Shown here: piece after piece, positions 16,340 through 36,946 of the stretch
Numbering within the stretch: the first letter of the stretch is position 1
Layout of the letters: every line of letters begins with the position of its first letter
DNA from: the human T2T-CHM13v2.0 reference genome, Homo sapiens
DNA length: 64,000 nucleotides
Assembly: GCF_009914755.1 (NCBI RefSeq)
Contig: NC_060930.1
Strand: one strand, 5' to 3'
Notes under the pieces: generated by a model
What the model saw: only the letters and a program-made list of their open reading frames with translations
What the model was told of the DNA's origin: nothing
Databases searched by the model: none
Made by a program: the position numbers and the translations under genes

Positions 16340-18374
16340 ATTCATATATCAGTTCTAGGAGCTTTTTTGGATGAGTCTTTAAGGTTTTTTAGGTATGCAA
16401 TCATATCATCAGTAAACAGCAACAGTTTGATTTCCTCTTTACCAATTTGGATGTCCTTTATTTCTCTCTCGCCTGATTGCTCTGTTTAGGACTTCCAGTA
16501 CTATGTTGAATAGAAGTGGTGAAAGTGGGCATTCTTGTCTTGTTCCAGCTCTCATGGGGAATGTTTTCAACTTCCCCCATTCAGTATAATATTAGCTGTG
16601 GGTTTGTCATATACGGCTTTTATTACCATAAAGCATGTCCCTTCTATGCCAGTTTGGCTGAGGGTTTTAATCATAAAGGATGCTAGATTTTGTCAAATAC
16701 TTTTTCTGTGTCTATTGAGATGATCATCTGATTTTTGTTTTTAATTCTGTTAACTTGGTGTATTCGACTTACTGTTAAACTGTCCCTGCATCCCTGGTAT
16801 GAAACCCACTTGATCATGGTGGATTACCTTTTTGATATGTTGTTGGAGTCAGTTAGCTAGTATTTTGTTGAGGATTTTTACATGTATGTTCATCATGGAT
16901 TTTGGTCTATAGTTTTCTTTTTTGTTATGTCCTTTCCTGGTTTAGGTATTAGGGTGATACTGGCTTTATAGAATGATTTAGAAAGGAGTCCCTCTGTCTC
17001 TATCTTTTAGAATAGTGTCAACAGGATTGGTACAAATTCTTCTTCAAATGTCTGATAGAATTAAGCTGTGAATCCACCTGGTCCTGGACTTTTTTCCTGG
17101 CATTTTTTTTACTACCATTTCAATCTTGCTGCTTTTTATTGGTCTGTTCAGAGTTTCTATTTCTTCCTGGTTTAATCTAGGAGGGTTGTATATTTCCAGG
17201 AATTTATGAATCGCCTCTAGGTTTTCTAGTTTGTGTGTGTAAAGGTGTTCATAACCGTCTTGAATAATCTTTGGTGTTTCTGTGGTGTCAGTTGTAATAT
17301 CTTCTGTTTCATTTCCAATTGAACTTATTTGGATCCTCTCTATTCTTTTCTTGGTTAATCTTGCTAATGGTCTATCAATTTTATATATCTTTTCAAAGAA
17401 CCAACTTTTTGTTTCATTTATCATTTGTATTTTTTTGTTTCACTTTCATTTAGTTCTACTCTGATCTTTGTTATTTCTTTTTCTTCTGTGGAGTTTGGGT
17501 TTGGTTTGTTCTTATTTCTCTAGTTCCTTTAGGCATGACCTTAGATTGCCTATTTGTGTTCTTTCCGACCTTTGATGTAGGCATTCAATGCTATGAGCTT
17601 TTCTCTTAGCACCATTTTGCTGTATCCCAGAGATTTTGATAGGTTGCATCATTATTATCATTCAGTTCAAAGAACTTTTTAATTTCCATCTTGATTTCAT
17701 TATTGACCCAATGATCATTCGGGAGCAGCTTATTTAATTTCTATGTATTTGCATGATTTTGTGATTCCTTTTGGAGTTGATTTCCAATTTTATTCCACTG
17801 TGGTCTGAGAGTACTTGATATGATTTCAAATATCTTAAATTTATTGAGCCTTGTTTTGTGGCTTATCATATGGTCTATCATGGAGAATGTTCAATGTGTA
17901 CATACTGCAGTTGTTGGGTAGAATGTTCTGTAAATATATTTTAAGTACATTTTTTCTAGAGTGTAGTTTAAGTCCATTATTTCTTTGTGGACTTTCTGCC
18001 TTGATGACCCGTCTAGTACTGTCAGTGGAGTATTGAAGTCCCCCACTATTATTGTGTTCCTGTCTATCTGATTTCTTAGGTCTATTAGTAATTGTTTTAT
18101 AAATTTGGAAGCTTCAGTGTTAGGTGCCTATATATTTAGGATGGTGATATTTTCCTGTTGGACTAGTTCTTTTATCATTATATCATGTCCCTCTTTGTCT
18201 CTTTTAACTGCTGTTGCTTTAAAGTTTGTTTTGTCTGATAGAAGAATAGCTTCTCCTTCTTGCTTTTGTGTCCTGTTGCATGGAATATCTTTTTCCACCC
18301 CTTTACCTTAAGTTTATGTGTGTCCTTATGTGTTAGGTGAGTCTCTTGAAGGTGGCAGGTACTTGGTTGGTGAT

Positions 18375-19206
18375 TAAGAGGTGAAGCCTGCTGGGCTTCC
18401 GGGTCAGGTGGGGACTTGGAGAACGTTTCTGTCTAGCTAAAGGATTGTAAACACACCAATCAGTGCCTTGTGTCTAGCTAAAGGTTTGTAAACACACCAA
18501 TCAGCACTCTGTAAAAATGCACTAATCAGTGCTCTGTGTCTAGCTAAAGGTTTGTAAACGCACCAATCAGCACTCTGTAAAAATGGACCTATCAGCACTT
18601 TGTAAAATGGACCAATCAGGAGGATATGGGTGGGGCCAAATAAGGGAATAAAAGCTGGCCACCCAAGCCAGCAGTGGTAACCCACTTGAGTCCCCTTCCA
18701 AGCTGTGGAAGGTTTGTTCTCTTGCTCTTCACAATAAATCTTGCTGCTGCTCACTCTTTGGGTCCACACTACCTTTATGAGCTGTAACACTCACCGTAAA
18801 GGTCTGCAGCTTCACTCCTGAATTCAGCAAGACCACGAACCCACCAAGAGGAAGAAACAACTCCAGACGTGCCATCTTTAAGAGCTGTAACACTCACTGC
18901 AAAGGTCTGTGGCTTCACTCCTGAAGTCAGCGAGACCACACACCCACCAGGAGGAACAAACAACCCTGGACACGCCACCTTTAAGAGCTGTAACACTCAC
19001 TGAGAAAGCCTGCAGCTTCACTCCTGAAGTCAGCAAGACCACAAACCCACCAGAAGGAAGAAACTCTGGACACATCTGAACATCTGAAGGAACAAACTCT
19101 GGACACTCCATCTTTAAGAACTGTAACACTCACTGTGAGCATCTGCAGCTTCATTCTTGAAGTCAGCAAGACCAAGAACCCACTGGAAGAAACAATTCCG
19201 GACACA
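18375..19206 (+). mobile_element. Solo LTR12 (ERV9 LTR), 832 bp
   Basis: TAAGAGGTGAAGCC...AATTCCGGACACA, CCAAT-rich U3 repeats, AATAAA-type TATA at 18647, poly(A) signal at 18733, four CTGTAACACTCAC U5 repeats. Confidence 0.96.
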
Positions 19207-20134
19207 ATTTCTTATTCTGCCATCCTGTATCTTTTAAGTGCAGCATTCAGGCCATTTACATTCAACATTAGTATTGAGCTGTGAGGTACTATTCTATTCA
19301 TCATGCTATTTGTTGCCTCAATACTTTGGTGGGTTTTTTAAATTGTATCATTGTTTTATAGTTCCCGTGAAATGTATGCTTTAAGGAGGTTCTATTTTTG
19401 TGTATTTTAAGCATTTATTTCAAGACTTAGAGCTCCTTTTATCAGTTCTTGTAGTGCTAGCTTGATAGTGGCAAATTCTCTCAGCATTTGTTTGTCTGAA
19501 AAAGGCTGTATCTTTCCTTCCTTTATGATGCTAGTTTCACTGGATACAAAATTCTTGGCTAATAATGGTTTTGTTTAAGGAGGCTAAAAATAGGATCCCA
19601 ATCCCTTTTAGCTTGTAGGGTTTCTGCTGATAAATCTGCTGTTAATCTGCTAGGTTTTCTTTTATAGGTTGCCTGATGCTTTTTCCTCACAGCTCTTAAG
19701 ATTCTTTCATTTATCTTGATTTTAGATAATCTGATGAATATGTGCCTAGGCAAAGATGTTTTTTGCAATGAATTTCCCAGGTGTTCTTTGAGCTTCTTGT
19801 ATTTGAATGTCTAGATCTCTAGCAAGGCCAGGGAAGTTTTTCTCAATTATTCCCTCAAATATGTTTTCCAAACTTTCAGATTTCTCTTATTCCTCCAGAA
19901 TACCAATTATTCTTAGGTTTTTTTTTTTTATTATACTTTTAGTTTTAGGGTACATGTGCACATAGTGCTGGTTAGTTACCTATGTATACATGTGCCATAC
20001 TGGTGCGCTGCACCCACTAACTCGTCATCTAGCATTAGGTATATCTCCCGATGCTATCCCTCTCCCATCCCCCCACGCCACAACAGTCCCCAGAGTGTGA
20101 TATTCCCGTTCCTGTGTCCATGTGATCTCATTGT

Positions 20135-23976
<3,842 letters not shown>

Positions 23977-24024
23977 TTATTTTGCTCATTAGTTGATGCA
24001 GTTTCTTACTAGTCTCAATGGTCT

Positions 24025-25041
24025 TTACATTTTGGCATGATTTTGCAGCGGCTGGTACCGGTTGTTCCTTTCCATGTTTAGTACTTCCTTCAGGAGCTCT
24101 TGTAAGGCAGGCCTGGTGGTGACAAAATCTCTCAGCATTTGCTTGTCTGTAAAGGATTTTATTTCTTCTTCACTTATGAAGCTTAGTTTGGCTGGATATG
24201 AAATTCTGGGTTGAAAATTCTTTTCTTTAAGAATGTTGAATATTGGCCCCCACTCTCTTCTGGCTTATAGGGTTTCTGCCAAGAGATCAGCTGTTAGTCT
24301 GATGGGCTTCCCTTTGAGGGTAACCCGACCTTTCTCTCTGGCTGCCCTTAATATTTTTTCCTTCATTTCAACTTTGGTGAATCTGTCAATTATGTGTCTT
24401 GGAGTTGCTCTTCTCGAGGAGTATCTTTGTGGCGTTCTCTGTATTTCCTGAATCTGAATGTTGGCCTGCCTTGCTAGATTGGGGAAGTTCTCCTGGATAA
24501 TATCCTGCAGAGTGTTTTCCAACTTGGTTCCATTCTCCCCATCACTTTCAGGTACACCAATCAGACGTAGATTTGGTCTTTTCACATAGTCCCATATCTC
24601 TTGGAGGCTTTGCTCATTTCTTTTTATTCTTTTTTCTCTAAACTTCCCTTCTCGCTTCATTTCATTCATTTCATCTTCCATTGCTGACACCCTTTCTTCC
24701 AGTTGATTGCATCAGCTCCTGAGGCTTCTGCATTCTTCACGTAGTTCTCGAGGCTTGGTTTTCAGCTCCATCAGCTCCTTTAAGCACTTCTCTGTATTGG
24801 TTATTCTAGTTATACGTTCTCCTAAATTTTTTTCAAAGTTTTCAACTTCTTTGCCTTTGGTTTGAATGTCCTCCCATAGCTCAGAGTAATTTGATCATCT
24901 GAAGCCTTCTTCTCTCAGCTCGTCAAAGTCATTCTCCATCCAGCTTTGTTCCGTTGCTGGTGAGGAACTGTGTTCCTTTGGAGGAGGAGAGGTGCTCTGC
25001 TTTTTAGAGTTTCCAGTTTTTCTGTTTTGGTTTTTCCCCAT
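24025..25041 (-). pseudogene. L1 ORF1, disrupted
   Basis: ATG at 25041; only fragment 24265..24690 is open (YVKRPNLRLIGVPE). Confidence 0.92.
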
Positions 25042-26407
25042 CTTTGTGGTTTTATCTACTTTTGGTCTTTGATGATCGTGATGTACAGATGGGTTTTTGG
25101 TGTGGATGTCCTTTGTGTTTGTTAGTTTTCCTTCTAACAGAGAGGACCCTCAGCTGCAGGTCTGTTGGAGTACCCTGCCATGTGAGGTGTCAGTGTGCCC
25201 CTTCTGGTGGATGTCTCCCAGTTAGGCTGCTTAGGGGTCAGGGGTCAGAGACCCACTTGAGGAGGCAGTCTGCCCATTCTCAGATCTCCAGCTGCATGCT
25301 GGGAGAACCACTGCTCTCTTCAAGGCTGTCAGACAGCGACATTTAAGTCTGCAGAGGTTACTGCTGTCTTTTTGTTTGTCTGTGCCCTGCCCCCAGAGGT
25401 GGAGCCTACAGAGGCAGGCAGGCCTTCTTGAGCTGTGGTGGTCTCCACCCAGTTCGAGCATCCAGGCTGCCTTGTTTACCTAATCAAGCCTGGGCAATGG
25501 TGGGCGCCCCTCCCCCAGCCTCGCTGCCGCCTTGCAGTTTGATCTCAGACTGCTGTGCTAGCAATCAGCGAGACTCCGTGGGCATAGGACCCTCGGAGCC
25601 AGGTGCGGGATATAATCTCGTGGTGCACCGTTTTTAAAGCCCGTCGGAAAAGTGCAGTATTCGGGTGGGAGTGACCCGATTTTCCAGGTGCCGTCCGTCA
25701 CCCCTTTCTTTGACTCAGAAAGGGAACTCCCTGACCCCTTGCACTTCCCAAGTGAGGCAATGCCTTGCCCTGCTTCGGCTCGCACATGGTGCGTGCACCC
25801 ACTGACCTGCGCCCACTGTCTGGCACTCCCTAGTGAGATGAACCCAGTACCTCCGATGGAAATGCAGAAATCACCTGTCTTCTGCGTCGCTCATGCTGTG
25901 AGCTGTAGACTGGAGCTGTTCCTATTCGGCCACTTGGCTCCTCCCCCTATTCTTAGGTCTTGTTGTTTAACATAATCCCAAACTTTTTTGAGGCTTTGCT
26001 CATTTTTTAAAAATTTTTTAATTGTTTCTCTTTGTCAGATAGCATTAATGCAAAAGCTTGTCTTCTAGCTCTGAAGTTCTTTCTTCTACTTGTTTGATTC
26101 TATTTCTAAGACTTTCCATTGTATTTTGCATTTCTCTAAGTGTGTCCTTCATTTTTAGAAGTTGTGATTGTTTTTTATTTATGCTATCTATTTCTCTGGA
26201 GATTTTTCCATCTATATCCTGTATCTTCTTTTTTTTTAATTTCTTTAAGTTGTTATTTGTCTTTCTCTGGTGCCTCCTTGAGTAGCTTAATAATCAACCT
26301 TTTGCATTCTTTTTCTGGCAATTCAGAGAATTCTTCTTGGTTTGGATCTATTACTGGTGAGCTACTGTGATTTTGGGGGAGTGGTAAAGAGTCATGTTTT
26401 GTCATAT

Positions 26408-27240
26408 TGTGTCTGGAATTGGTTCTTTCTGGTGGGTTCTTTGTCTCACCGACTTCAAGAATGAAGCCACAGACCCTTGCAGTGAGTGTTACAGTTCTTA
26501 AAGATGGTGTATCCAGAGTTTATTCCTTCAGATGTTCAGATTTGTCCAGAGTTTCTTTCTTCTCGTGGGTTCATGGTCTTGCTGACTTCAGGAGTGAAGC
26601 TGCAGACCTTTGCAGTGAGTGTTACAGCTCTTAAAGATGGCACATCCAGAGTTGTTTGTTCCTCCTGGTGGGTGCATGGTCTCACTGACTTCAGGAGTGG
26701 AGCTGCAGACCTTCGCAGTGAGTGTTACAGCTCTTAAAGTTGGCGCATCTGGAGTTGTTTGTTCCTCTTGGTGGGTTCGTGGTCTTGCTGACTTCAGGAG
26801 TGAAGCTGCAGACCTTTGCAGTGTGTGTTACAGCTCATAAAGGTAGTGTGGACCCAAAGAGTGAGCAGCAGCAAGATTTATTGCAAAGAGCAAGAGAACA
26901 AACCTTCCACAGCTTGGAAGGGGACCCAAGTGGGTTGCCGCTGCTGGCTTGGGTGGCCAGCTTTTATTCCCTTATTTGGCCCCGCCCACATCCTGCTGAT
27001 TGGTCCATTTTACAAAGTGCTGATTCGTCCGTTTTTACAGAGTGCTAATTGGTGCGTTTACAAACCTTTAGCTAGACACAGAGTGCTGATTGGTGCGTTT
27101 TTACAGCATGCTGATTGGTGCGTTTACAAACATTTAGCTAGACACAGAGCACTGATTGGTGTGTATACAATCCTTTAGCTAGACAGAAACGTTCTCCAAG
27201 TCCCCACCTCACCCAGAAGCCCAGCCAGCTTCATCTCTTA
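26408..27240 (-). mobile_element. ERV9 3' LTR (LTR12), 833 bp
   Basis: Preceded on the minus strand by PPT AGAGGGGAGAT (27241-27251); four U5 repeat units. Confidence 0.95.
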
Positions 27241-27407
27241 ATCTCCCCTCTAAACAGGACACCCCAAATGCTGTTGGGAATTGGGTGATGACCACTCTAG
27301 CTACTTCCTGCTGGATAGAGGCAAAGAAAGGGCCTTGCAGTTGTAGTGTCCTCAAGAGGGGAACACTTTAGGCCAGTGAAAGGGCCAGCTGGTTAGTCCA
27401 GAGGTCC

Positions 27408-29113
27408 TCAGTAGAAGTTGTTAGTTGAGCTCATTTGGGTTTCCATTTGTAAGACCATCTGTAGCTTGATGGCCTTGATCCTAGAGGAAACAAATTTGAC
27501 AAGGAGGTTAAAAATGGCCTGAAGGCGAGTAATAACAAAATGGCTGCCACAGGACCTAGAAAGGGAAGAAGCCATGTTGCCCAACTCTAGAGGTTGGTAT
27601 AAGAGTTTGAAAGTCATTGTCTGATTTCAGAAGCCTTTTCCTGTAAACACCAGGCAGCATCTCGTACTATCCCTGACTGGTTAGTGTAAAAACAACACTT
27701 TCCCCTAAGAAGGTGCAGAGTCCTCCTTTCTCAGCAGTGAGGAGGTCTAGGCCTCAGTGGTTTTGGAGAGTCGCTGCTGCCAAAGAGTCTATTTGGGATT
27801 GTAGAGTAAGGATAGCTTTCGTTATTTCTTGCAAACTGTCTGAGAAATACTTTGAGTGTGTGTGGTAGTAGGATAATGAAGTAGATAAACTGGCTATTCC
27901 AGTTCCTGTAGCAGTAGCCATTCTTAACCCTATAAGTAGGGGTATTCGTTGTATGGCTCTGCACTGACAGACTTGGGCTTTGAGGGGTACTGATAGGGTC
28001 TGATTTCCTGGGGGAAATGTTAATGTTGGGACTTAGAAAGACTAAGGTGCAGGTGCCTTTCCAGTTAGTGGGGAGGCAGATATACATCGATGATCCACAT
28101 AAGAAGAATATACTTCTCTGGGTAGACAGAACTGGTTATTTTTGTTAAAAAGATGTGTGAGTTTGTTGTTTTCATTTTCCCATACTCCTAGAGTATTTGC
28201 AAAGGTAGCTCCAGTGAATGGCTGGAAAGGGGTGTTGGGAGCAAACTGAGTGGCTACCTATATTCTATTTTCCTATTGGAGAAAAAACCATTTCATACCT
28301 ACTAGGAACCATTCGAGAGTGTGATTGAAAGAGGGGATGAGAAGGCATTCACTAGTGGTGGGGGCACTTCTGTAGGATGTCCAGGGGTGAATGGTCATAC
28401 AGGGAGTATGTTTGCCATTACAAAACCTGGACTGTTTGTTAAGCAGGGAGGAGTTGATGATTTTGGGGGGCCCTGAGAATCAGACAAGCCATCTGAATGG
28501 AATTGTTTGGGTGACTCGGAAGTTCCTATGATCAGTTGGGACTTGAAGTTGTAGGGTGATATTACACTGATGGGGTAGTAGGTGCCCCAGGGGCAGGCCT
28601 GATAATAGGTTGTGTTGGATGCATAAAGGGGCTTGGAAAATTAGGATGGTACTCATAGTTATAGGGCCATGTATGGGCTTTTCATTGCTTGTGTAATAGG
28701 TGAGGTTGGAAATGTAAGAACGTAAAAGTTGGAATGCACGTCCTGTTAGGGTACTCTTGGTCCTATCAGAGATGGGGAAGTCAGCTAATGATTGCATATT
28801 TAGAAGTCAGAAAGGGTCTTTTCCTTCATAATGAGGGTGGTAGGTTAAGTTGGTAAAAACCCAATTTTTTTGCGGGAATGGGAGTGGCAACATAAGCAGA
28901 AGTTGATAGAGAGATACAAAGCCAACAGTAATTTGCCAGGGAAGGATTGGACTGGTTTAACAGAGAGTGGGTTAAGTTGAGAGTCTTGTAGAGGTAATTA
29001 GGAGCTAGTGGAAGGGGAGGGGTGATTGTATGAGATATCCAAGGAAGCAGCAGGGATAGATAGGCAAAGAGTAAATAGGAAGGTAAAGAGGGTGCTCTGG
29101 AAGATGAGATCAT
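27408..29113 (-). pseudogene. env: ERV9 env, frameshifted
   Basis: Signal-peptide-like N-terminus with CWLC (28826..29113). ISD-like LQNH*GLDLLTAEKGGLC at ~27715-27770. Tail KFVSSRIKAIKLQM. Confidence 0.9.
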
Positions 29114-29352
29114 CTTATCCAGTCTGAGTTAAAGGTAGAAGTAAATCGCTGTCAGAAGGAAGGAATATAGAAAGAAGGTTGATGTGATTTGGATTTTCAT
29201 CCCAGCAGGAGCTACTTACTGTATATAGTCCTATTGCAAAGGGTATGGTTAGTATACTACTTAACAATATGATGAAATAGTAAAAGAATTCCATTAAAGG
29301 GGCAAGGAGAGGTGTTAAAGATAAAGATTATATAGGTTTTCACTTATCTTTT

Positions 29353-32300
29353 TTAAGGAGGAAGGAGTTTTTCTTCAGGATCAGTGGTAGGAGCCTTTTT
29401 AGTCTGGGATGTTTCCTTCTGAAATAGGAGATGCAAGTCCTCCAACAGTTCACAGGTGTATCGAGGCTGGTCTGGCTGATCTTGGGACTCCTGAGCTGAC
29501 AGTCCCACAGGTTCCTCAGGGGGTGTCCAAAATTTATATTGGATGTGGTAAATCCAAGATTCCACTCCTGCCACCTTAACTGCAGTGGGAGTAGAGAGGA
29601 TTACCGAGTATGGTCCTTCCCACAAAGAGTCCATAGATGGGGAGGTAGAAGGGAGAGATTTGACCAACACTAGATCTCCTGGTTGAAACAACTCTGTTCC
29701 CTTTTCTCTATGACATCCTTCAGGTAGGTTTTTAAGGTTTTCTTGATATTTTGCCAAAGAAGTTATATCTTTGACCAAGTTGGCCATTTCATGATCAAGT
29801 AGGAGGTCATTTGTGAGAAAAGGTCATTCGTACAGCATTTCATATGGACTGGGCCCTATTTTGTGAGGAGAATTTCAGATTCTTAATAAGGCCACAGGCA
29901 AGAGAGTAGGCCATGGGAGATGAGTTTCTTGTGTTAATTTCCTTAGGTGCCTCTTGAGTGTTTCATTTGCCTTCTTGACATTCCCTGAGGATTGTGGCCT
30001 CCAGGCGCAGTGAAGATGATATTGTATCCCTAATGCCCTGGAAATTCCCTGAGTTATTGTGGCTTTAAAAGCTGGACCATTGTCACTCTATAAGCTTTGG
30101 GGAAGCCCAAATCTAGGAATTATTTCATGAATTAGGACTTAGTCAGTTCCTGAGCCTTCTCTGTCTTGCAGGGGAAAGCTTCTATCCAATTTGCAAAGGT
30201 ACAAACAAAGACCAACAAGTATTGAAATCCCTTTGACTTAGGCATAGGTCCTCTCCAGGATAGTGACCTATTCTTTGTTCCCCCAAAGGGGCCTTATGAT
30301 GGACCAAGCGATTATTCCTTTGGCACACCTCACAGGCTTTGACTACCTGTCAGATGATCTGGAGGACATTTGGCCCTGTAAATAGGGATTTGGCCATATG
30401 ATGAGTGTTTTCAATACCCATATGAAAAGTTTGGTAGAGGGTTTTAAGTATTTTCCACTGGCTGGTTTTGGGTATAAGTACCTTTCCTTCTTCTGTCCTT
30501 AACCACCCCAAGGGGAGAAAACTATGCCCCTGTGAAACTCCCTATTCTGTTTCAGTCAGGGAATACTGGGGCTTAATCTCTTGGAGGGGGTTGTTCCATA
30601 CCAACAGTCCTTCTGCAGGTATTTCTAATGGGAGATTCTGCCTGGCAGCAATTTCGGCCTCAGCATCTGCCTGACAGATTCCTTCTGCATTTTCTCCTTC
30701 ACCTTTCTGATGGCTTTGTCAGGGTAAGACTGCCACCTCCTTGGGTTTTTGCACTGTGTGCAATAACTCCATAATTTCCTGTGGTATCTAATGGGGGTTA
30801 CCCCAGAGGTTAGGAACTCCCTTTCTTTCCATATTGCAGCATGGCATGTAGGATTAGATAAGCCTACTTGCTATCTGTATACACATTTATTCTTTTTCCC
30901 TTTCCCATTTAATCTTTTTCTCTTTCACTGTTCTAAGGCTTGGGTAAGTGCCCCTAGTTCTGCTAACTGGGCACTGGTCCCTGGGGGAAGAGGCTTACTT
31001 TCACGTACGGTTACATCACTAACTATGGCATAACCTGCCCTTCATATCCAATTCTCCACAAATGAACTTCCATCAGTATATAAGTTAAGGTCTGGATTAG
31101 CTAAGGGGACTTCTAAAAGATCATCTCAGGAAGTATAAGTCTGGACTATAATTTGTTGGCAGTCATGCTCGATTGATTCCCCATCCTCTGAAAGAAAAGT
31201 GGCAGGGTGGATGGCCATGCATGTATGTATTTAAGCAACAGTCTCTCAAGGAGTAGTGCCTGGTATCTAAGTAGGTGGTTGTCTGATAGCCATAAACTTC
31301 CTTTGGCACCTAATATGCCATTTACATCATGAGTAGTCCAGACAGTGAGATCCTTTCCTTGTATTATTTTGATAGCCTCTGACACTAAGAAGGCCACAAC
31401 CAAAACTACCCTTAAACAGTGAGGCCAGCCTTTTGCTACTACATCATTTTCCTTATTTAGGTATGCCACTGGTTGTGGGGTTGTCCCACGAGTCTGGGTA
31501 AGTACTCCAAGAGCTATCCCTGCTCTCTCTGTAATGTATAAAGAGAAGTTTTGTCCTGTTGGGAGGCTTAAAGCTGGAGCCTGTACTAGGGCCTGCTTTA
31601 AGGTTTTGAAGGCTGTTCCCACCCCTGGTTCCCATTCTACTAGATGAGTATTTGCCCTCTGGGTCTCCTTGATTAGAGTATAGAGGGGCCTGCCTATCGC
31701 ACTGTATCCAGGGATCCATAGTCGGCAAAAGCCAGTGATTCCAAGGAATGCCCGCAACTGTTTTAATGTCTTAGGGTGAGGATAAGCCAGGATAGGCTGT
31801 ATTCATTCCTTGCTGAGGGCCCTGGTCCCTCTGGCTAAGATTAGGCCTAGATATTTGACCTGCTGTAGGCAAAGCTGGGCCTTCAACTTAGACACCTTGT
31901 ACTCTTGATTAGCTATAAAGTTCAAGAGATCCAGAGTAGTCTGCTGGCATGAGGCTTCCAAACTGGTAGCCAAAAGTAAATCATCCACATACTGAAGGAC
32001 CAGAGTACCTGGACTTGAGAAGTGGCCTAGATCTTGGGCCAGTGCCTGACCAAACAGATGAGGGCTATCCCTAAACCCTTGGGGCAAGACCATCCATGTA
32101 AGTTGGGACATGTGGTCTGTGGGATCCTCAAAGGCAAAGAGAAACTGGGAGTCAGAGTGCAGGGGAATATAGAAGAAGGCATCCTTGAGGCCCAGAACAG
32201 TGAACCATTCTGCTTCCTCTGGTATTTGAGAGAGCAGGGTATAGGGGTTGGGTACAACTAGATATAGAGGAATTACTGCCTCATTGATGAGTCTAAGATC

Positions 32301-32925
32301 TTGCACTAGTCTCCACTGACCGCTCAGTTTTGGACTCCTAGAATTGGGGTGTTGCAGGGACTGCTGCATTTCCTTACTAAGCTTTGAGCTTTTAAATGTT
32401 TAACAATATCTTGTAATCCTTTATGAGCTTCAGGCCTTAAGGGATATTGCCTTTGATAAGGAAAAGTGGTGGGATCTTTTAGCATGATTTGGACTGGCTG
32501 GGCAGTTTTTTCCCTTCCAAATTGTCCTTCCAATGCCCAGACTTCAGTGTTGATTCCCTCCTCAAGTAGGGGACAACAAATGGGTAACTTGTTCCCCATA
32601 TTCGTGTAAATAATAGCTCCACCTTTGGCTAATATATCCCTCCCTAATAAGGGTGTGGGACTTTCAGGCATAATAAGAAAGGCATGTGAAAAGAGCAAAG
32701 TCTCCCAATTACAACTGAGGAGGTGGGAGAAATACCTGGTTACAGGCTGTCCCAGCATTCCTCGGATGGTAACAGACCTTGATGACAGTCGTCCAGGACA
32801 GGAGATTAACACTGAGAAGGCTGCACCAGTGTCCAGGAGGAAGTCAATTTCCTGGCCCTCAATGGTTAAGCATAGCCAGGGCTCAGTGAGGGTGATGACA
32901 TGAGCTGGCGCTTGCCCTGGACACC
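29353..32925 (-). pseudogene. pol: ERV9 pro-pol, fragmented
   Basis: Protease FLLDTGA near 32820-32845, RT LPQGF and YVDD (31803..32369), RNase H YTDGS near 31070, IN C-terminal WEGPY (29353..29787). Confidence 0.93.
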
Positions 32926-32929
32926 CTCA

Positions 32930-34388
32930 GTCCTGTTGTTGGATCATCTCATTGGGGGTTTCCAGCCGAGAGAACCATTGAACTCTGGGGCAGTGTGCCT
33001 TCCAGTGATTGCCTCGGTATAGCAGACATGGACAAGTGGGCAGCTTGTTTCTCATTGGACAATCTTTTTTAAAGTGTCCTTGTAAATCTCACTGATAACA
33101 AGCCCTACCAGGTGATTGGCCTGCTCCATTTTCTGTCCTCTCTGAGCTACCCAGGTTTGTTTGTCTGAGGGCCATGACTAGGGCTGCAGCCTTTCTCTGA
33201 TCTTGCTTTTCATTTTGGGCCTGTTCCTCTTGGTCCCTATTATAGAATACTGAAGTTGCCAGGTTTAATAATGCCTCTAGATTTTGTTCAGGGCCCAGGG
33301 CTCACTTTTGGGGCTTTCTCCTGATATCTGTGGCTGATTGGGTAATAAACTTATCTTTTAGGATCAACTGGCCCTCTAGTGAGTCAGGTGACAGGAGAGT
33401 ATATTTTCTTAAGGCCTCCCGTAGCGGCTTGAGGAAGGCAGAAGTATTTTCTTCCTTTCCCTGAGTTATGGTGGACATCATTGAATAATTCATGGGCTTT
33501 TCCTAATTCTCCTTAGTCCTTCTAGAACACAGGTCAACAGATGTTCATGACTCTAGTCCCCATGATCTGAGTCAAGGTCCCAGTGGGGATCCATACTGGG
33601 GATGGCTTGCTGATAGTTAGGGAATTTGTCCCTTTCTTCAGCTGTCATTCTATCATTTACTTGACTAAGATACCAGGTATCTCCAAACTCTCAGGCTGCA
33701 GCTAAAGCCACATTCTTCTCATTAAAGGTCAGGGTTTGATCTAACAATAGCATGACATCTCTCCAAGTGAGATTGAAGGTTTCCCCTAGACCCTGTAGAA
33801 CATCTATGTACCTATCAGGATCATCTGAAAACTTCCCCAGGTCTGCCTTGATCTGCTTTAAATCAGAGAGGGAGAAGGGGACATGTACCCGGGTTGGGCC
33901 AAATTCCCCTCCCCCTACAGCTTGAAGGGGACATAAAAGATAGCCTGTGGGTTTTTGTGGTCCTTTGGAGATTTCTTTTCTTGTTTCCTTCTGGGCAGGG
34001 GAGATTAGAGGAGGCTTATCATTAATAGGAAGGAGAGCTATAGGGAGGCTAGGATATGGGGGTAAGCTGAGAGGTCCTCCTGTGGGATGTAAATTGTAAG
34101 CTTTGCATAGTTGTGGATTCTCCCTCAATGAAAAGAAAGCTTGGACTTAAGGTATTTCATTCCATTTGCCTTCCCCCTTACAGAAAAGGTGAAGCTGCAA
34201 GATAGTATTGTAATTTATACTTCTCTCAGGTGGCCATTTTTCCCCATCAGAGAGAGAATATTGGGCCAAGCCATAGTGCAGAAAAAAATGAACTGCCTCT
34301 TTTTCAACGTTTGCAGGTCAAATTGGTTGCAGTGGCTTAGGATGCATTTCAAGGGTGAGTCTGTTGATGCCTGAGTGTTTCCTATCTG
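32930..34388 (-). pseudogene. gag: ERV9 gag, fragmented; probable start codon mutated to ATA
   Basis: GNTQASTDSPLKCIL, VHVPFSLSDLKQIK and MHR-like ITQGKEENTSAF. Confidence 0.9.
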
Positions 34389-35512
34389 AAAGATAAAACT
34401 GCCAACAGTTTTGGTTTGTTTTTTTCTCCCCCTGCCCAAGAACCTGTAATGGTCCCTGGACCCTGCTGATCAGAATAGTTGTGCTCACTGATGCAGCAGC
34501 AGAAACACCTCTTGCCCAAGAACCCACAACAGTCCCTGGGCCCTACTGATCAGAATAGTTGCACTCATCGATGCAGCAGCAGAAAAACTAATTTTGCTCC
34601 TAGACCACAAGGAGGACCGAGGAATGTCAGATTAGTAGCCCTTATTGGTGCATTCTCAAATACCTGTTAGAGTCCTAAGCATTGTCCTGTTAGCACTGGG
34701 ACTTTACCACTGTCCTATAAAGATGTTATGCCCCAAAAATGAAGTGGAGGGCCATACTCTGAGGGAGGGAAGGGATCTCCAGAGTTGGAAGAGTGATGCC
34801 TTTTGTCCTCACTTATGTGGAGGATATCATTTCTGAGGCTCTCCATATCCTAGTTTCAGGAATAGCTTTTGTTAGGCCTGCTTGTCTGAGGAGGGATCCT
34901 AAAATTCCAGATAGTCCCCCACCCCAATGGGGCTTTGGGCAAAAATTATGTCTTTCTGATTGGTGAGCCCAGGTGCCTAAAGAAGGTAACAGAGTCCTGA
35001 AGTTTATACTAGAAATCATTCTTACAGGAGAAACTAGAAAAGCACCAGAGACAGGGAGTGGTTTTTAGAAGCAGGACTAGCCTCGGAGAAGAGAGGCGAG
35101 AGGAAGTTTGTCTGACAGGCATTAGAACCCAGGAGGCAAGGGTCAGGATAGATAGGATAGATGGGCAAGTCTCGCTTGGGCAACCTGTTTTTGAGAGTTC
35201 CATTCATGGCTGCAGGATCAACCAACTTGTTGTCGGGACCCCAGAGCTGAATGGCTTTCCTCTCTGTCAATGCTTGGTTCAGCCCAGAAGTACAGGAAAA
35301 CTGGAAGCTGGTTCCAGGCAAACCAACACTCCTAACTCTGTAAAGTCGGGGATTGTTAGAGAGCCCTTTCCCAGGAAGCCTGACACCCAACGGCCGCACT
35401 AGTCACTTTACACTGGCCAACAGCTTCCTGGTATTTAGCCCCCGAATTCTAAGGAAAAATAGGACAGAATAGCAAGCAAAAGGGGTCTGATGGTACTCAC
35501 CACTTGGTGATT

Positions 35513-35530
35513 GTCCCATCTGGGTTGCCA
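35513..35530 (-). promoter_or_regulatory. Primer binding site, tRNA-Arg type
   Basis: TGGCAACCCAGATGGGAC lies 3 nt after the 5' LTR and is a 17/18 match to the recalled tRNA-Arg(CCG) 3' end. Splice donor GGTGAGT follows at ~35495-35501. Confidence 0.85.
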
Positions 35531-35533
35531 AAA

Positions 35534-36260
35534 TGTGTCCTGAATTGGTTCCTTCTGGTGGGTTCTTGGTCTTGCTGACTTCAAGAATGAAGCCTCAGAC
35601 CCTCACAGTGAGTATTACAGTTCTTAAAGATGGTGTGTCCGGAGTTCCTTCCTTCAAATGTTCAGATGTCTCCAGAGTTTCTTGCTCCTAGTGGGTTCAT
35701 GGTCTCACTGACTTCTGGAGTGAGGCCGCAGACCTTTGCAGTGAGTGTTACAGCTCTTAAAGGTAGCACATCCAGAGTTTTTCATTCCTCCCAATGGGTT
35801 TGTGATCTCACTGACTTCAGGAGTGAAGCTGCAGACCTTCACAGTGAGTGTTACAGCTCATAAAGGTAGTGAGGACCTAAAGAGTGAGCAGCAGCAAGAT
35901 TTATTGTGAAGAGCAAAAGAACAAAGCTTCCACAGCATGGAAGGGGACCCGAGAGAGTTGCTGCTGCTGGCTCAGGTGGCCAGCTTTTATTTCCTTATTA
36001 GGCCCCACCCACATCCTGCTGATTGGTCCATTTTACAGAGCACTGATTGGTCCATTTTACAGAGTGCTGATTGGTGCATTTACAAATCTTTAGCTAGACA
36101 CAGAGTGCTGATTGGTGCATTTTTACAGAGTGCTGATTGGTGTGTTTACAAACTTTTAGCTAGACACAGAGTGCCAACTGGTGTGTTTACAATCCTTTAG
36201 CTAGACAGAAAAGTTCTCCAAGTCTCCACCCAACCCAGAAGCCCAGCTGGCTTCATCTCT
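35534..36260 (-). mobile_element. ERV9 5' LTR (LTR12), ~727 bp
   Basis: Adjacent to the PBS; only three U5 repeat units. Confidence 0.95.
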
Positions 36261-36946
36261 ATATTACCAGAATTGTTTTTCTGGTTTCTTCTCATTTGGG
36301 TAGACTATGTCAGAGGGAAGATTTGGGGCTCAAGGGCTGTTGTTCAGATTCTTTTATCCCATAGGGTGCTCCTTTGATGTAGTGCTCTTCACCTTCCCCT
36401 AGGTATGGGGCTTCCTGAGAGACAGACTGCAGTGATTGATATTTCTGTTCTGGGTCTAGCCACCCAGTGGAGTTACCAGGCTCCAGGATGGTACTGGGGA
36501 GTGTCTTCAGAGAGTCCTGTGATATGATCCATCTTCAGGTCTCTCAGCCATGAATACCAGCACCTGCTCTGATGGAGGTAGCAGGGGAGTGGACTCTGTG
36601 AGGGTCTTTGGTTGTAGTTTTGTTTAGTGCACTGGTTTTTTGTTGGTTGGCCTCTAGCCAGTAGGTGGCACTTTCAAAAGAACATCAGCTGTGGTATTAT
36701 AGGGAGGATACAAGCTTATCCTAGGGTTGCCTGGATAAGTATTTGGGTTTCTCAAGGAGTGAGCAGGAATGTAGAACTCCCAAGAGATATGTCCTTTGTC
36801 TTTAGCTACCAAGGTGGGTAGAGAAAGACTATTGGGTGAGGCAGGGTTAAGCATGTCTGAGCTCAGATTCTCCCTGGGTGAGGCTTGCTGCAGCTGCTGT
36901 GGGAGATGGGGGTGTGATTCTCAGGCTGATGGAGTTATGTTCTTTG

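What the first reader, a model, noticed from the sequence alone, without database searches (positions are those of the whole stretch)
18372..27243. Solo LTR12 is an inverted sibling of the ERV9 3' LTR, not of the provirus's own 5' LTR, and has no TSD
Seen: the solo LTR (832 bp, +) and the 3' LTR (833 bp, -) both have four U5 repeat units, while the 5' LTR has three (one ~103-bp unit fewer). They share variants absent from the 5' LTR: GAACGTTTC vs GAACTTTTC, CCAAGCTGTGGAAGGTTTGTTCTCTTG vs CCATGCTGTGGAAGCTTTGTTCTTTTG, CACCCAAGCC vs CACCTGAGCC, and CAGCACTTTG. Both begin TAAGAG instead of TG. The solo has no 4-bp TSD (TGAT/ATTT), and its flanks match the 3' LTR's flanks for 3 nt (GAT) and 2 nt (AT). 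Known: the two LTRs of a provirus are identical at integration. Inference: before the L1PA3 landed, the two arms were only ~1.2 kb apart. The solo is therefore either a repair-templated inverted copy of the 3' LTR, or the arms were homogenised by fold-back gene conversion. LTR-LTR dating of this provirus would be misleading.
Basis: partly seen in the sequence, partly recalled or inferred. Interest (0 to 1): 0.8.

Follow-up and report, generated by a model that had tools for sequence, protein, structure and literature searches.

The report
Neighbouring inverted retroviral LTRs share sequence
A lone retroviral end-repeat and the nearby, oppositely oriented end-repeat of an old ERV9 provirus share rare mutations, most likely because one was partly copied onto the other long ago, a known process that distorts provirus dating.

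Summary
The solo LTR is 18375-19206 (+), the 3' LTR 26408-27240 (-), the 5' LTR 35534-36260 (-).

The solo and the 3' LTR are each other's best match in the whole genome (91%, next 87-89%). They share 7 states that are rare among the other aligned copies, the highest count of 1128 pairs. A 27-base three-state haplotype occurs nowhere else in the genome. They are sisters in the ML tree (98/92).

The provirus's own LTRs share 1 rare state. They nevertheless flank one integration with a true 4-bp duplication, ATAT.

The solo sits cleanly in an old L1 with only 2 surplus bases, so no intact duplication. The special likeness is strongest at 18596-18941 and absent in the last 264 bp.

Best reading: ancient non-allelic gene conversion between two independently inserted LTRs that lay inverted 1,161 bp apart. 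Direction is unknown.

AU tests did not reject the alternative tree. The phenomenon is known, so interest is modest.

The parts
18375..19206 (+). Solo LTR (ERV9/LTR12-type), 832 bp. It begins TAAGAG, ends GGACACA and has four U5 units.
   Evidence: Whole-genome search finds thousands of family candidates. Termini compared with other copies.
18371..18374 (+). Left flank TGAT of the solo. GGTGA is host L1 sequence; the final T is surplus.
   Evidence: 20 L1 paralogs at about 90% identity read GGTGA-ATTC-TTAT without interruption.
19207..19210 (+). Right flank ATTT of the solo. Host L1 paralogs read ATTC, so one T is surplus. There is no intact 4-bp duplication.
18596..18941 (+). Stretch of strongest solo/3' LTR likeness (end of U3, R, first U5 units). 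It corresponds to 26674-27019 in the 3' LTR. The candidate conversion tract may extend 5' to 18376.
   Evidence: Divergence 23/346 (6.6%) against a background of 12.2%. Sisters in 994 of 1000 bootstrap trees. Quartets favour solo+3' LTR with 45 of 45 outgroups. Best genomic hit 94%, next 91%.
18942..19206 (+). Last ~264 bp of the solo (U5 units 3-4), with no special likeness to the 3' LTR.
   Evidence: Divergence 32/264 (12.1%) against a background of 12.6%. Solo+3' LTR is best with only 4 of 45 outgroups. No rare shared state here.
19207..19918 (-). Old L1 (minus strand), the first part of the spacer between the arms.
   Evidence: Collinear with the L1PA copy and with paralogs.
19919..25947 (-). 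Full-length younger L1PA insertion (6,029 bp) with an 11-bp duplication TATTCTTAGGT at 19908-19918 and 25948-25958.
25959..26407 (-). Old L1 (minus strand), the second part of the spacer. It ends at the provirus duplication ATAT (26404-26407).
26408..27240 (-). 3' LTR of the provirus, 833 bp. It begins TAAGAG, has four U5 units, and is preceded by the purine tract GAGGGGAGAT (27250-27241).
27241..35533 (-). Degraded internal region of a gammaretrovirus-like provirus: protease, reverse transcriptase, RNase H and integrase C-terminal fragments in that order. The primer-binding site TGGCAACCCAGATGGGAC lies at 35530-35513.
   Evidence: Pfam hits RVP, RVT_1, RT_RNaseH_2 and MLVIN_C. The longest stop-free stretch is 218 aa. 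Sequence.
35534..36260 (-). 5' LTR, 727 bp. It has three U5 units and lacks its first two bases.
36261..36264 (-). Provirus target-site duplication ATAT, paired with 26404-26407.
   Evidence: 14 of 14 L1 paralogs read GGTAATATGACAAAAC without interruption.

Best explanation
Two elements of the same ERV9/LTR12 family inserted independently into one old L1, 1,161 bp apart and in opposite orientation. One is the provirus. The other was later reduced to a solo LTR. Afterwards one or more non-allelic (intrachromosomal) gene-conversion events between the inverted solo and the adjacent 3' LTR copied sequence from one arm to the other. The transfer covered at least ~18596-18941 and probably reached patchily towards the 5' end, but it did not cover the last ~264 bp.

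Shown:
- The solo and the 3' LTR share rare states that the 5' LTR lacks.
- The 5' and 3' LTRs belong to one integration.
- The solo sits cleanly in the L1.
- The likeness is uneven along the LTR.

Inferred:
- The mechanism, that is heteroduplex or synthesis-dependent repair between inverted repeats.
- That the event is ancient. The pair differ by 6.6% in the tract and 9% overall, so the event long predates the L1PA insertion.
- That the solo's missing duplication is decay of an original 4-bp duplication.

The direction of transfer is not resolved.
For: 1. Reciprocal best matches genome-wide: 91%, against 87-89% for the next copies (40 of 4574 and 40 of 4514 candidates scored). In the central 346 bp the figures are 94% and 91%.
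2. Rare shared states (held by at most 5% of the other rows): solo+3' LTR 7, 3'+5' LTR 1, solo+5' LTR 0. Seven is the maximum of 1128 pairs (median 0, 95th percentile 2). Two genuine provirus LTR pairs score 5 and 6. P(at least 7 of 8 fall to one named pair) = 0.0026.
3. The haplotype CCAAGCTGTGGAAGGTTTGTTCTCTTG has 2 exact matches in the genome, both here. There are 0 matches with one mismatch and 17 with two.
4. In the ML tree of 48 LTRs the solo and 3' LTR are sisters at 98/92. Quartet counts average 14.7 / 7.2 / 5.8 informative sites, and solo+3' LTR is best with 44 of 45 outgroups.
5. The provirus is a single integration. 14 of 14 L1 paralogs show the empty site, so ATAT is a true duplication. 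The 5' and 3' LTRs were therefore identical at integration.
6. Mosaic pattern. Solo-3' LTR divergence is 9.0% / 6.6% / 12.1% in the three parts, against backgrounds of 11.2 / 12.2 / 12.6%. Quartets favour solo+3' LTR with 45 of 45 outgroups centrally but only 4 of 45 in the last 264 bp.
7. The solo's ends coincide with the LTR ends, and the host L1 is collinear across it. This is what integration predicts.
8. At 18381 the 3' LTR keeps a rare state shared with the 5' LTR (1 of 31 others) that the solo lacks, so the arms were not homogenised throughout.
9. Ectopic conversion among human LTRs, solo LTRs included, is documented, with maximum tracts of 14-450 bp (PMC4921805, passages read).
Against: - The solo has no intact 4-bp duplication, only 2 surplus bases relative to 20 paralogs. 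At least 10 other family copies show perfect 4-bp duplications. Decay therefore needs two ad hoc steps.
- The partitions were chosen after seeing the data, and the contrasts are modest (Fisher p 0.038 and 0.049).
- Outside the central stretch the pair is still sister in 864 of 1000 bootstrap trees. They also have no indel difference in the 5' part, which only 11 of 190 pairs match. A whole-LTR relationship is therefore not excluded.
- AU tests do not reject a tree joining the 3' and 5' LTRs (p 0.27, 0.34, 0.17, 0.34). These tests were noisy in this star-like tree.
- By K2P the pair is only just the closest of 1128 pairs (0.0972 against 0.0976).
- Both arms share TA at LTR position 2, yet they differ at position 7. 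This needs a patchy tract, a reversal or a parallel change.
- No orthologue from another primate could be examined.
Confidence: 0.68

Rival explanations
1. The solo never integrated. It is a repair-templated, or otherwise integrase-independent, inverted copy of the neighbouring 3' LTR, placed at a break in the old L1 with 1-2 nt of microhomology at each junction.
For: - There is no intact duplication. The observed junctions GGTGA-T[LTR]AT-TTC can be derived from the host GGTGA|ATTC plus the donor GAT[LTR]ATAT with one extra T.
- TA at LTR position 2 is shared.
- The count of 7 rare shared states resembles a genuine LTR pair that was once identical.
- The pair is still sister in 864 of 1000 trees outside the central stretch.
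- Only 1 indel event separates them over about 815 bp.
Against: - The copy would have to begin and end within 1-2 nt of the LTR termini. No known break-repair process predicts that.
- At most 1 base of donor flank is present. The rest of the matching flank bases are host L1 sequence.
- The last 264 bp are at family-background divergence with no shared rare state.
- The rare state at 18381, shared by the 3' and 5' LTRs, is absent from the solo.
Confidence: 0.1
2. The solo and the provirus are sibling insertions from one source lineage that carried the rare states. The 5' LTR is the altered one, overwritten by ectopic conversion from another genomic copy and shortened by one U5 unit.
For: - The 5' LTR has the longest terminal branch of the three (0.12 against 0.074 and 0.088).
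- It lacks a U5 unit and its first two bases.
- Inter-chromosomal conversion of LTRs is documented (PMC4921805, passages).
Against: - There is no site where all three window LTRs share a state held by at most 15% of other copies. No sibling-lineage signal remains anywhere.
- The 5' LTR's rare sharing with other copies (4 with L020, 3 with L038, 3 with L004) is scattered, not clustered, and points to no single donor.
- This model predicts uniform solo-3' LTR divergence, which is not seen.
- A donor on another chromosome is a priori less likely than one 1.2 kb away.
Confidence: 0.08
3. There was no special event. The likeness is chance, from parallel mutation at hot sites within a star-like burst family.
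For: - Pair distances are nearly tied (0.0972 against 0.0976).
- Unrelated pairs can share up to 4 rare states.
- AU tests are not significant.
- TA starts recur in the family: 16 exact pattern matches.
Against: - Seven rare shared states is the maximum of 1128 pairs.
- Three of them lie within 21 bp and form a haplotype found nowhere else in 3.1 Gb.
- None of the six in the three-way alignment is a common CpG-decay state: 0-2 of about 45 others carry each.
- Binomial p = 0.0026.
Confidence: 0.04
4. A recombination-driven rearrangement between LTRs (inversion, or deletion between two proviruses) produced a chimeric solo without a duplication.
For: Loss of the duplication is the classic sign of inter-element recombination (recalled from Hughes and Coffin; not read here). 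The solo's right flank ATTT matches the provirus flank ATAT at 3 of 4 positions.
Against: - The old L1 is collinear and uninterrupted across the solo, in the same orientation, to within 2 bases. It remains collinear on to the provirus site.
- The provirus has its own intact duplication.
- An inversion or deletion would break both features.
Confidence: 0.03

Closest known systems
Non-allelic (ectopic) gene conversion among human LTRs (Trombetta et al. 2016, Sci Rep, PMC4921805; passages read)
   Same: Short-tract, non-reciprocal transfer between paralogous LTRs, solo LTRs included, producing patchwork sequences. The reported maximum tracts of 14-450 bp are of the same order as the roughly 350-570 bp stretch here.
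   Different: That study used polymorphism on the Y chromosome and found recent events with many donors. This case is a single ancient event (6.6-9% subsequent divergence) between two autosomal neighbours in inverted orientation. It is inferred from one genome only.
Discordant 5'/3' LTR phylogenies of HERV proviruses attributed to conversion or recombination (Johnson and Coffin 1999; Hughes and Coffin 2001, 2005; recalled, not read here)
   Same: The two LTRs of one provirus do not group together, and one groups with an LTR from another element. The consequence is the same: LTR-LTR dating becomes unreliable.
   Different: Here the partner is a solo LTR 1.2 kb away in inverted orientation, and the provirus keeps an intact duplication. 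No crossover product is involved.
Arm-to-arm gene conversion in palindromes and inverted repeats (for example Y-chromosome palindromes; recalled)
   Same: Inverted arms with a short spacer exchange sequence without reciprocity.
   Different: Palindrome arms are kept more than 99.9% identical by continuing conversion. These arms are 91% identical, so conversion was rare or stopped. The L1PA insertion widened the spacer to 7.2 kb.
Ordinary solo LTR formed by integration followed by 5'-3' LTR recombination
   Same: The ends coincide with the LTR termini, and the insertion into the host L1 is clean.
   Different: The family's usual 4-bp duplication is not intact here. Only 2 surplus bases remain.

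Membership tests
   4574 first-look candidates, 40 scored at 83-91% identity. Some copies are preceded by a purine tract or followed by a TGG-start primer-binding site.
   The end is ...GGACACA, as in the family. The start is TA rather than TG in both the solo and the 3' LTR. This is a single-base departure, seen in 16 exact pattern matches genome-wide.
Solo LTR from a normal integration | 4-bp target-site duplication | tested here: not met
   The flanks are TGAT and ATTT. Twenty L1 paralogs give the empty site GGTGA|ATTC, so the window has 2 surplus bases, not 4. At least 10 family copies show perfect 4-bp duplications.
Single intact provirus integration (5' and 3' LTR from one event) | Matching duplication, and a collinear host sequence once the element is removed | tested here: met
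   ATAT lies on both sides. 14 of 14 paralogs read GGTAATATGACAAAAC.
Single intact provirus integration (5' and 3' LTR from one event) | Internal retroviral genes between the LTRs, with the primer-binding site after the 5' LTR and the purine tract before the 3' LTR | tested here: met
   RVP, RVT_1, RNase H and MLVIN_C in order on the minus strand. Primer-binding site and purine tract.
Non-allelic gene conversion | Phylogenetic discordance: the acceptor groups with a paralogue rather than with its expected partner | tested here: met
   Solo+3' LTR are sisters at 98/92. The 3'+5' LTRs are sisters in 0 of 1000 bootstrap trees. Quartets favour solo+3' LTR with 44 of 45 outgroups. AU tests were not significant.
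Non-allelic gene conversion | A bounded tract: likeness confined to a stretch flanked by unconverted sequence | tested here: inconclusive
   Divergence is 6.6% centrally against 12.1% in the last 264 bp (p about 0.04, post hoc). Quartet support is 45/45 against 4/45. However, the pair is still sister in 864 of 1000 trees outside the central stretch.
Non-allelic gene conversion | The state before conversion seen in an orthologue or allele, giving direction and date | not testable with these tools
   No other primate genome or human haplotype was available.
Templated inverted duplication (fold-back or microhomology-mediated repair) | The copy carries donor flank beyond the repeat, and its breakpoints are unrelated to element borders | tested here: not met
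   The borders coincide with the LTR ends. At most 1 base is attributable to donor flank, and the rest is host L1.
Templated inverted duplication (fold-back or microhomology-mediated repair) | Uniform divergence between copy and template | tested here: inconclusive
   Divergence is 9.0 / 6.6 / 12.1% across the three parts. The heterogeneity is modest.

The most novel reading that the evidence does not exclude
The solo LTR is not an integration product at all. It would be an LTR-length piece of DNA, either a template-switch copy of the adjacent 3' LTR or a captured reverse-transcription by-product of that provirus, joined into a nearby break without integrase. This would account for the missing target duplication, the surplus T at the left junction and the shared non-canonical TA terminus. 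It would be a natural example of LTR-precise, integrase-independent creation of a solo LTR.
Probability: 0.1. Interest if true: 0.55.

Novelty: new member of a known kind. Interest (0 to 1): 0.27.

Why it matters
Provirus ages are routinely estimated from the divergence between the 5' and 3' LTRs. Solo LTRs are routinely treated as independent insertions in family trees. This locus is a worked example in which a neighbour 1.2 kb away has exchanged sequence with one LTR of a provirus. If the 3' LTR was the acceptor, the provirus's LTR-LTR distance (K2P 0.134, against 0.107 and 0.116 for two other proviruses of the family) cannot be read as age, and a solo LTR mimics a true LTR partner. It also shows that the number of U5 repeat units is not a safe subfamily marker in this family. 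No new principle is involved.

Tried and rejected
1. Two subfamilies. BLAST ranked only three-unit copies next to the 5' LTR, which suggested that the 5' and 3' LTRs belong to different subfamilies. Rejected: once the missing unit is gapped, the 5' LTR's nearest copies include four-unit ones, and the three- and four-unit labels are mixed in the tree with 9-10 changes.

2. Defective TA terminus. I asked whether the TA start marks a lineage with a defective integrase end that inserts aberrantly, keeping the unprocessed AT and making no duplication. L051 on C18 looked similar. Rejected as a general rule: of 14 TA-start copies not in a 3' LTR context, 6 have perfect and 3 have 3-of-4 duplications, and only 2 are preceded by AT.

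3. Inversion or inter-element deletion. Rejected because the L1 is collinear.

4. Daughter element. I asked whether the solo descends from a daughter of this provirus, with U3 from the parent's 3' LTR and U5 from its 5' LTR. Rejected: in the first U5 unit the solo sides with the 3' LTR.

5. Duplicated paralogue on C13. The 3' LTR L043, whose flank begins AAATATGACAG, might have been a duplicate of this locus. Rejected: the flank has no further similarity, and only the internal ERV sequence aligns, at 89%.

6. GENECONV-like fragment test over all 1128 pairs. Uninformative: many unrelated pairs reach the minimum permutation p, and solo-3' LTR scores p = 0.02.

7. AU and topology tests. Not significant and dominated by search noise. 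The solo+5' LTR constraint cost only 4.5 lnL.

8. Earlier findings of this scan were not open to the session.


Full report
**What is there**

The window holds an ERV9-type provirus on the minus strand.
- The 5' LTR is 36260-35534.
- The primer-binding site TGGCAACCCAGATGGGAC is 35530-35513.
- The internal region is 35533-27241.
- The purine tract GAGGGGAGAT is 27250-27241.
- The 3' LTR is 27240-26408.

The internal region carries, in order on the minus strand, Pfam matches to retroviral protease, reverse transcriptase, RNase H and an MLV-type integrase C-terminal domain. It is broken into stop-free stretches of at most 218 aa.

A solo LTR of the same family lies on the plus strand at 18375-19206. 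The lengths of 832 and 833 bp are right. The two arms align without a gap for 825 nt at 91% (I1).

Between them lies a full-length L1PA on the minus strand, 19919-25947 (6,029 bp), with an 11-bp duplication TATTCTTAGGT.

**Is the solo really closest to the 3' LTR?**

Searches of the whole assembly make the two reciprocal best hits: 91%, with the next copies at 87-89%. Only 40 of about 4,500 first-look candidates are scored in each search.

I aligned the three window LTRs with 45 other copies. These were 33 with four U5 units and 12 with three, taken from the top hits.

By plain distance the result is weak:
- K2P for solo-3' LTR is 0.097, solo-5' LTR 0.131 and 3'-5' LTR 0.134.
- The family is a star-like burst. 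The median of all 1128 pairs is 0.137, and unrelated pairs reach 0.098.
- Two genuine provirus LTR pairs in the set differ by 0.107 and 0.116.

Shared rare characters decide the matter:
- Counting states held by at most 5% of the other rows, the solo and 3' LTR share 7 (18425, 18600, 18701, 18712, 18721, 18847, 18941).
- This is the highest count of all 1128 pairs. The median is 0 and the 95th percentile is 2. The two genuine LTR pairs score 5 and 6.
- The 3' and 5' LTRs share 1 (18381). The solo and 5' LTR share 0.
- The chance that at least 7 of 8 such states fall to one pre-named pair of three is 0.0026.
- The 27-base stretch carrying three of the states has exactly two perfect matches in 3.1 Gb, both here. 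No match has one mismatch, and 17 have two. It is not a subfamily consensus.

Tree-based results:
- The ML tree joins the solo and 3' LTR at 98/92, on an internal branch (0.027) as long as those of the genuine LTR pairs (0.028 and 0.034).
- In four-taxon parsimony counts against each of the 45 other copies, solo+3' LTR wins with 44.
- Against this, AU tests did not reject trees that hold the 3' and 5' LTRs together (p 0.27, 0.34, 0.17, and 0.34 in a three-way test). Those tests were dominated by search noise in the unresolved rest of the tree. Even the unsupported solo+5' LTR constraint cost only 4.5 lnL.

Diagnostic:
- GAACGTTTC (0 of 34 others).
- CAGCACTTTG (0 of 45).
- The three states in CCAAGCTGTGGAAGGTTTGTTCTCTTG (2, 1 and 1 of 45).

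Not diagnostic:
- CACCCAAGCC: these states are held by 31 and 18 of 45 copies.
- Four versus three U5 units. The same unit-sized gap is present in all 12 three-unit copies, but three- and four-unit copies are intermingled in the tree and need 9-10 changes. Unit number is labile.

The TAAGAG start is unusual. The copies shown start TGAGAGG, with one other exception. Genome-wide there are 16 exact TA-start pattern matches among 487 matches at up to 1 mismatch. The state of the 5' LTR cannot be known, because it lacks its first two bases.

**Are the 5' and 3' LTRs one integration?**

Yes. Fourteen of 14 paralogues of the host L1 read ...CAATTCTGGTAATATGACAAAAC... without interruption. In the window, ATAT stands on both sides of the provirus. 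The two LTRs were therefore identical at integration, and the present discordance arose afterwards.

**The solo's insertion site**

Twenty L1 paralogues at about 90% identity read GGTTGGTGA-ATTC-TTATCC at the site. The window reads GGTTGGTGAT[LTR]ATTTCTTAT.
- The old L1 is collinear across the solo, which excludes inversion or inter-element deletion.
- Most of the flank identity with the 3' LTR (GA on the left, AT on the right) is host sequence.
- Only two bases are surplus, not the four that a normal duplication leaves. This family does leave 4-bp duplications: at least 10 perfect cases are visible.

Two explanations each need two small steps. The first is an original AATT or ATTT duplication that lost two bases. 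The second is an insertion without duplication plus stray T's. I could not decide between them.

**Is the likeness uniform?**

Solo-3' LTR divergence in three parts:

| Part | Differences | Divergence | Background to other copies |
|---|---|---|---|
| 18375-18595 | 20/221 | 9.0% | 11.2% |
| 18596-18941 | 23/346 | 6.6% | 12.2% |
| 18942-19205 | 32/264 | 12.1% | 12.6% |

- Quartets favour solo+3' LTR with 45 of 45 outgroups in the central part, 24 of 45 in the 5' part and 4 of 45 in the last part.
- No rare shared state lies beyond 18941.
- At 18381 the 3' LTR keeps a rare state shared with the 5' LTR that the solo lacks.

This mosaic is what a conversion tract predicts and what a whole-LTR copy does not.

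The caveats are real:
- The partitions were chosen after the fact, and Fisher p is 0.04-0.05.
- Outside the central part the pair is still sister in 864 of 1000 bootstrap trees. One genuine LTR pair drops to 55 of 1000 there, so power in that partition is low.
- The arms have no indel difference in the 5' part, which only 11 of 190 pairs match.

The related stretch may therefore run from the 5' end to about 18941.

**Mechanism**

The best-supported account has four steps.
1. Two independent insertions landed in one old L1, inverted and 1.16 kb apart.
2. One was reduced to a solo LTR.
3. One or a few ancient non-reciprocal exchanges then occurred between the inverted arms.
4. Both arms have since accumulated about 3-5% change each.

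Direction cannot be told from one genome. The shared rare states may be markers of the solo's lineage imported into the 3' LTR, or 3' LTR mutations exported to the solo. Branch lengths fit either.

If the 3' LTR was the acceptor, the provirus's LTR-LTR distance (0.134) does not measure its age.

Ectopic conversion among human LTRs, solo LTRs included, with maximum tracts of 14-450 bp, is in print (PMC4921805, passages read). Earlier primate-comparative reports by Johnson, Hughes and Coffin are recalled, not read here. Two literature searches listed nothing on this locus or on inverted LTR12 pairs. That is a statement about those two searches only.

**Rivals**

- A templated, integrase-independent copy of the 3' LTR remains possible (about 0.1). 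It would explain the missing duplication and the shared TA terminus. It requires breakpoints that coincide with the LTR ends, and it is at odds with the background-level last 264 bp.
- Alteration of the 5' LTR by an outside donor (about 0.08) finds no support. No site unites all three LTRs, and the 5' LTR's rare sharing is scattered.
- Chance (about 0.04) and rearrangement (about 0.03) are unlikely for the reasons above.

**Verdict**

The case is an instance of a known process rather than something new.

Noticed in passing
window 19919-25947 (duplications at 19908-19918 and 25948-25958): A full-length L1PA (6,029 bp) on the minus strand with a perfect 11-bp duplication TATTCTTAGGT. The RefSeq 'enhancer' feature 25108-25631 lies inside its 5' UTR. 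NCBI's masking is broken here into 19971-21227, 21232-25204 and 25470-25934.
   Followed up: partly
window 36260-36264: The 5' LTR begins AGAGATG directly after the duplication ATAT. Its first two bases (TG or TA) are missing, so whether it once carried the TA start cannot be read.
   Followed up: yes
L051 (G000:C18:40440253-40441038): A three-unit solo LTR that also starts TAAGAGG, is preceded by AT and shows no matching 4-bp duplication (CTAT against GGTA/GTAA). It groups next to the solo+3' LTR pair at 94/82 but shares only one rare state with them (18712).
   Followed up: partly
L055-L071 (17 loci fetched): LTR12-type copies that start TA instead of TG. Three are 3' LTRs of proviruses. Of the other 14, 6 have perfect and 3 have 3-of-4 matching 4-bp duplications. 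The TA start is therefore usually a change after integration, or is compatible with normal integration.
   Followed up: yes
L043/L092 (G000:C13:110418750-110419905): A 3' LTR on C13 is followed by AAATATGACAG, resembling the ATATGACAAAAC that follows the window's 3' LTR. The similarity stops after about 12 bases, so it is a coincidence and not a duplicated locus.
   Followed up: yes
window 19216-19220 region (right flank of the solo): Relative to 20 L1 paralogues (TTATCCATTCTGC), the host L1 here reads TTATTCTGC. This is a 4-5-base deletion nine bases from the solo, so small deletions have occurred at this junction region.
   Followed up: no
L003 (G000:C1:246135566-246139419): Two LTR starts of this family lie 1.67 kb apart on the same strand (C1:246137064 and 246138736). 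This could be a tandem LTR or a heavily deleted provirus.
   Followed up: no
window 17136-17427 with 22602-22893, and 19418-19532 with 24069-24183: Direct repeats at 71-73% (D4 and D6). They are simply the old host L1 matching the younger L1PA inserted into it in the same orientation.
   Followed up: yes
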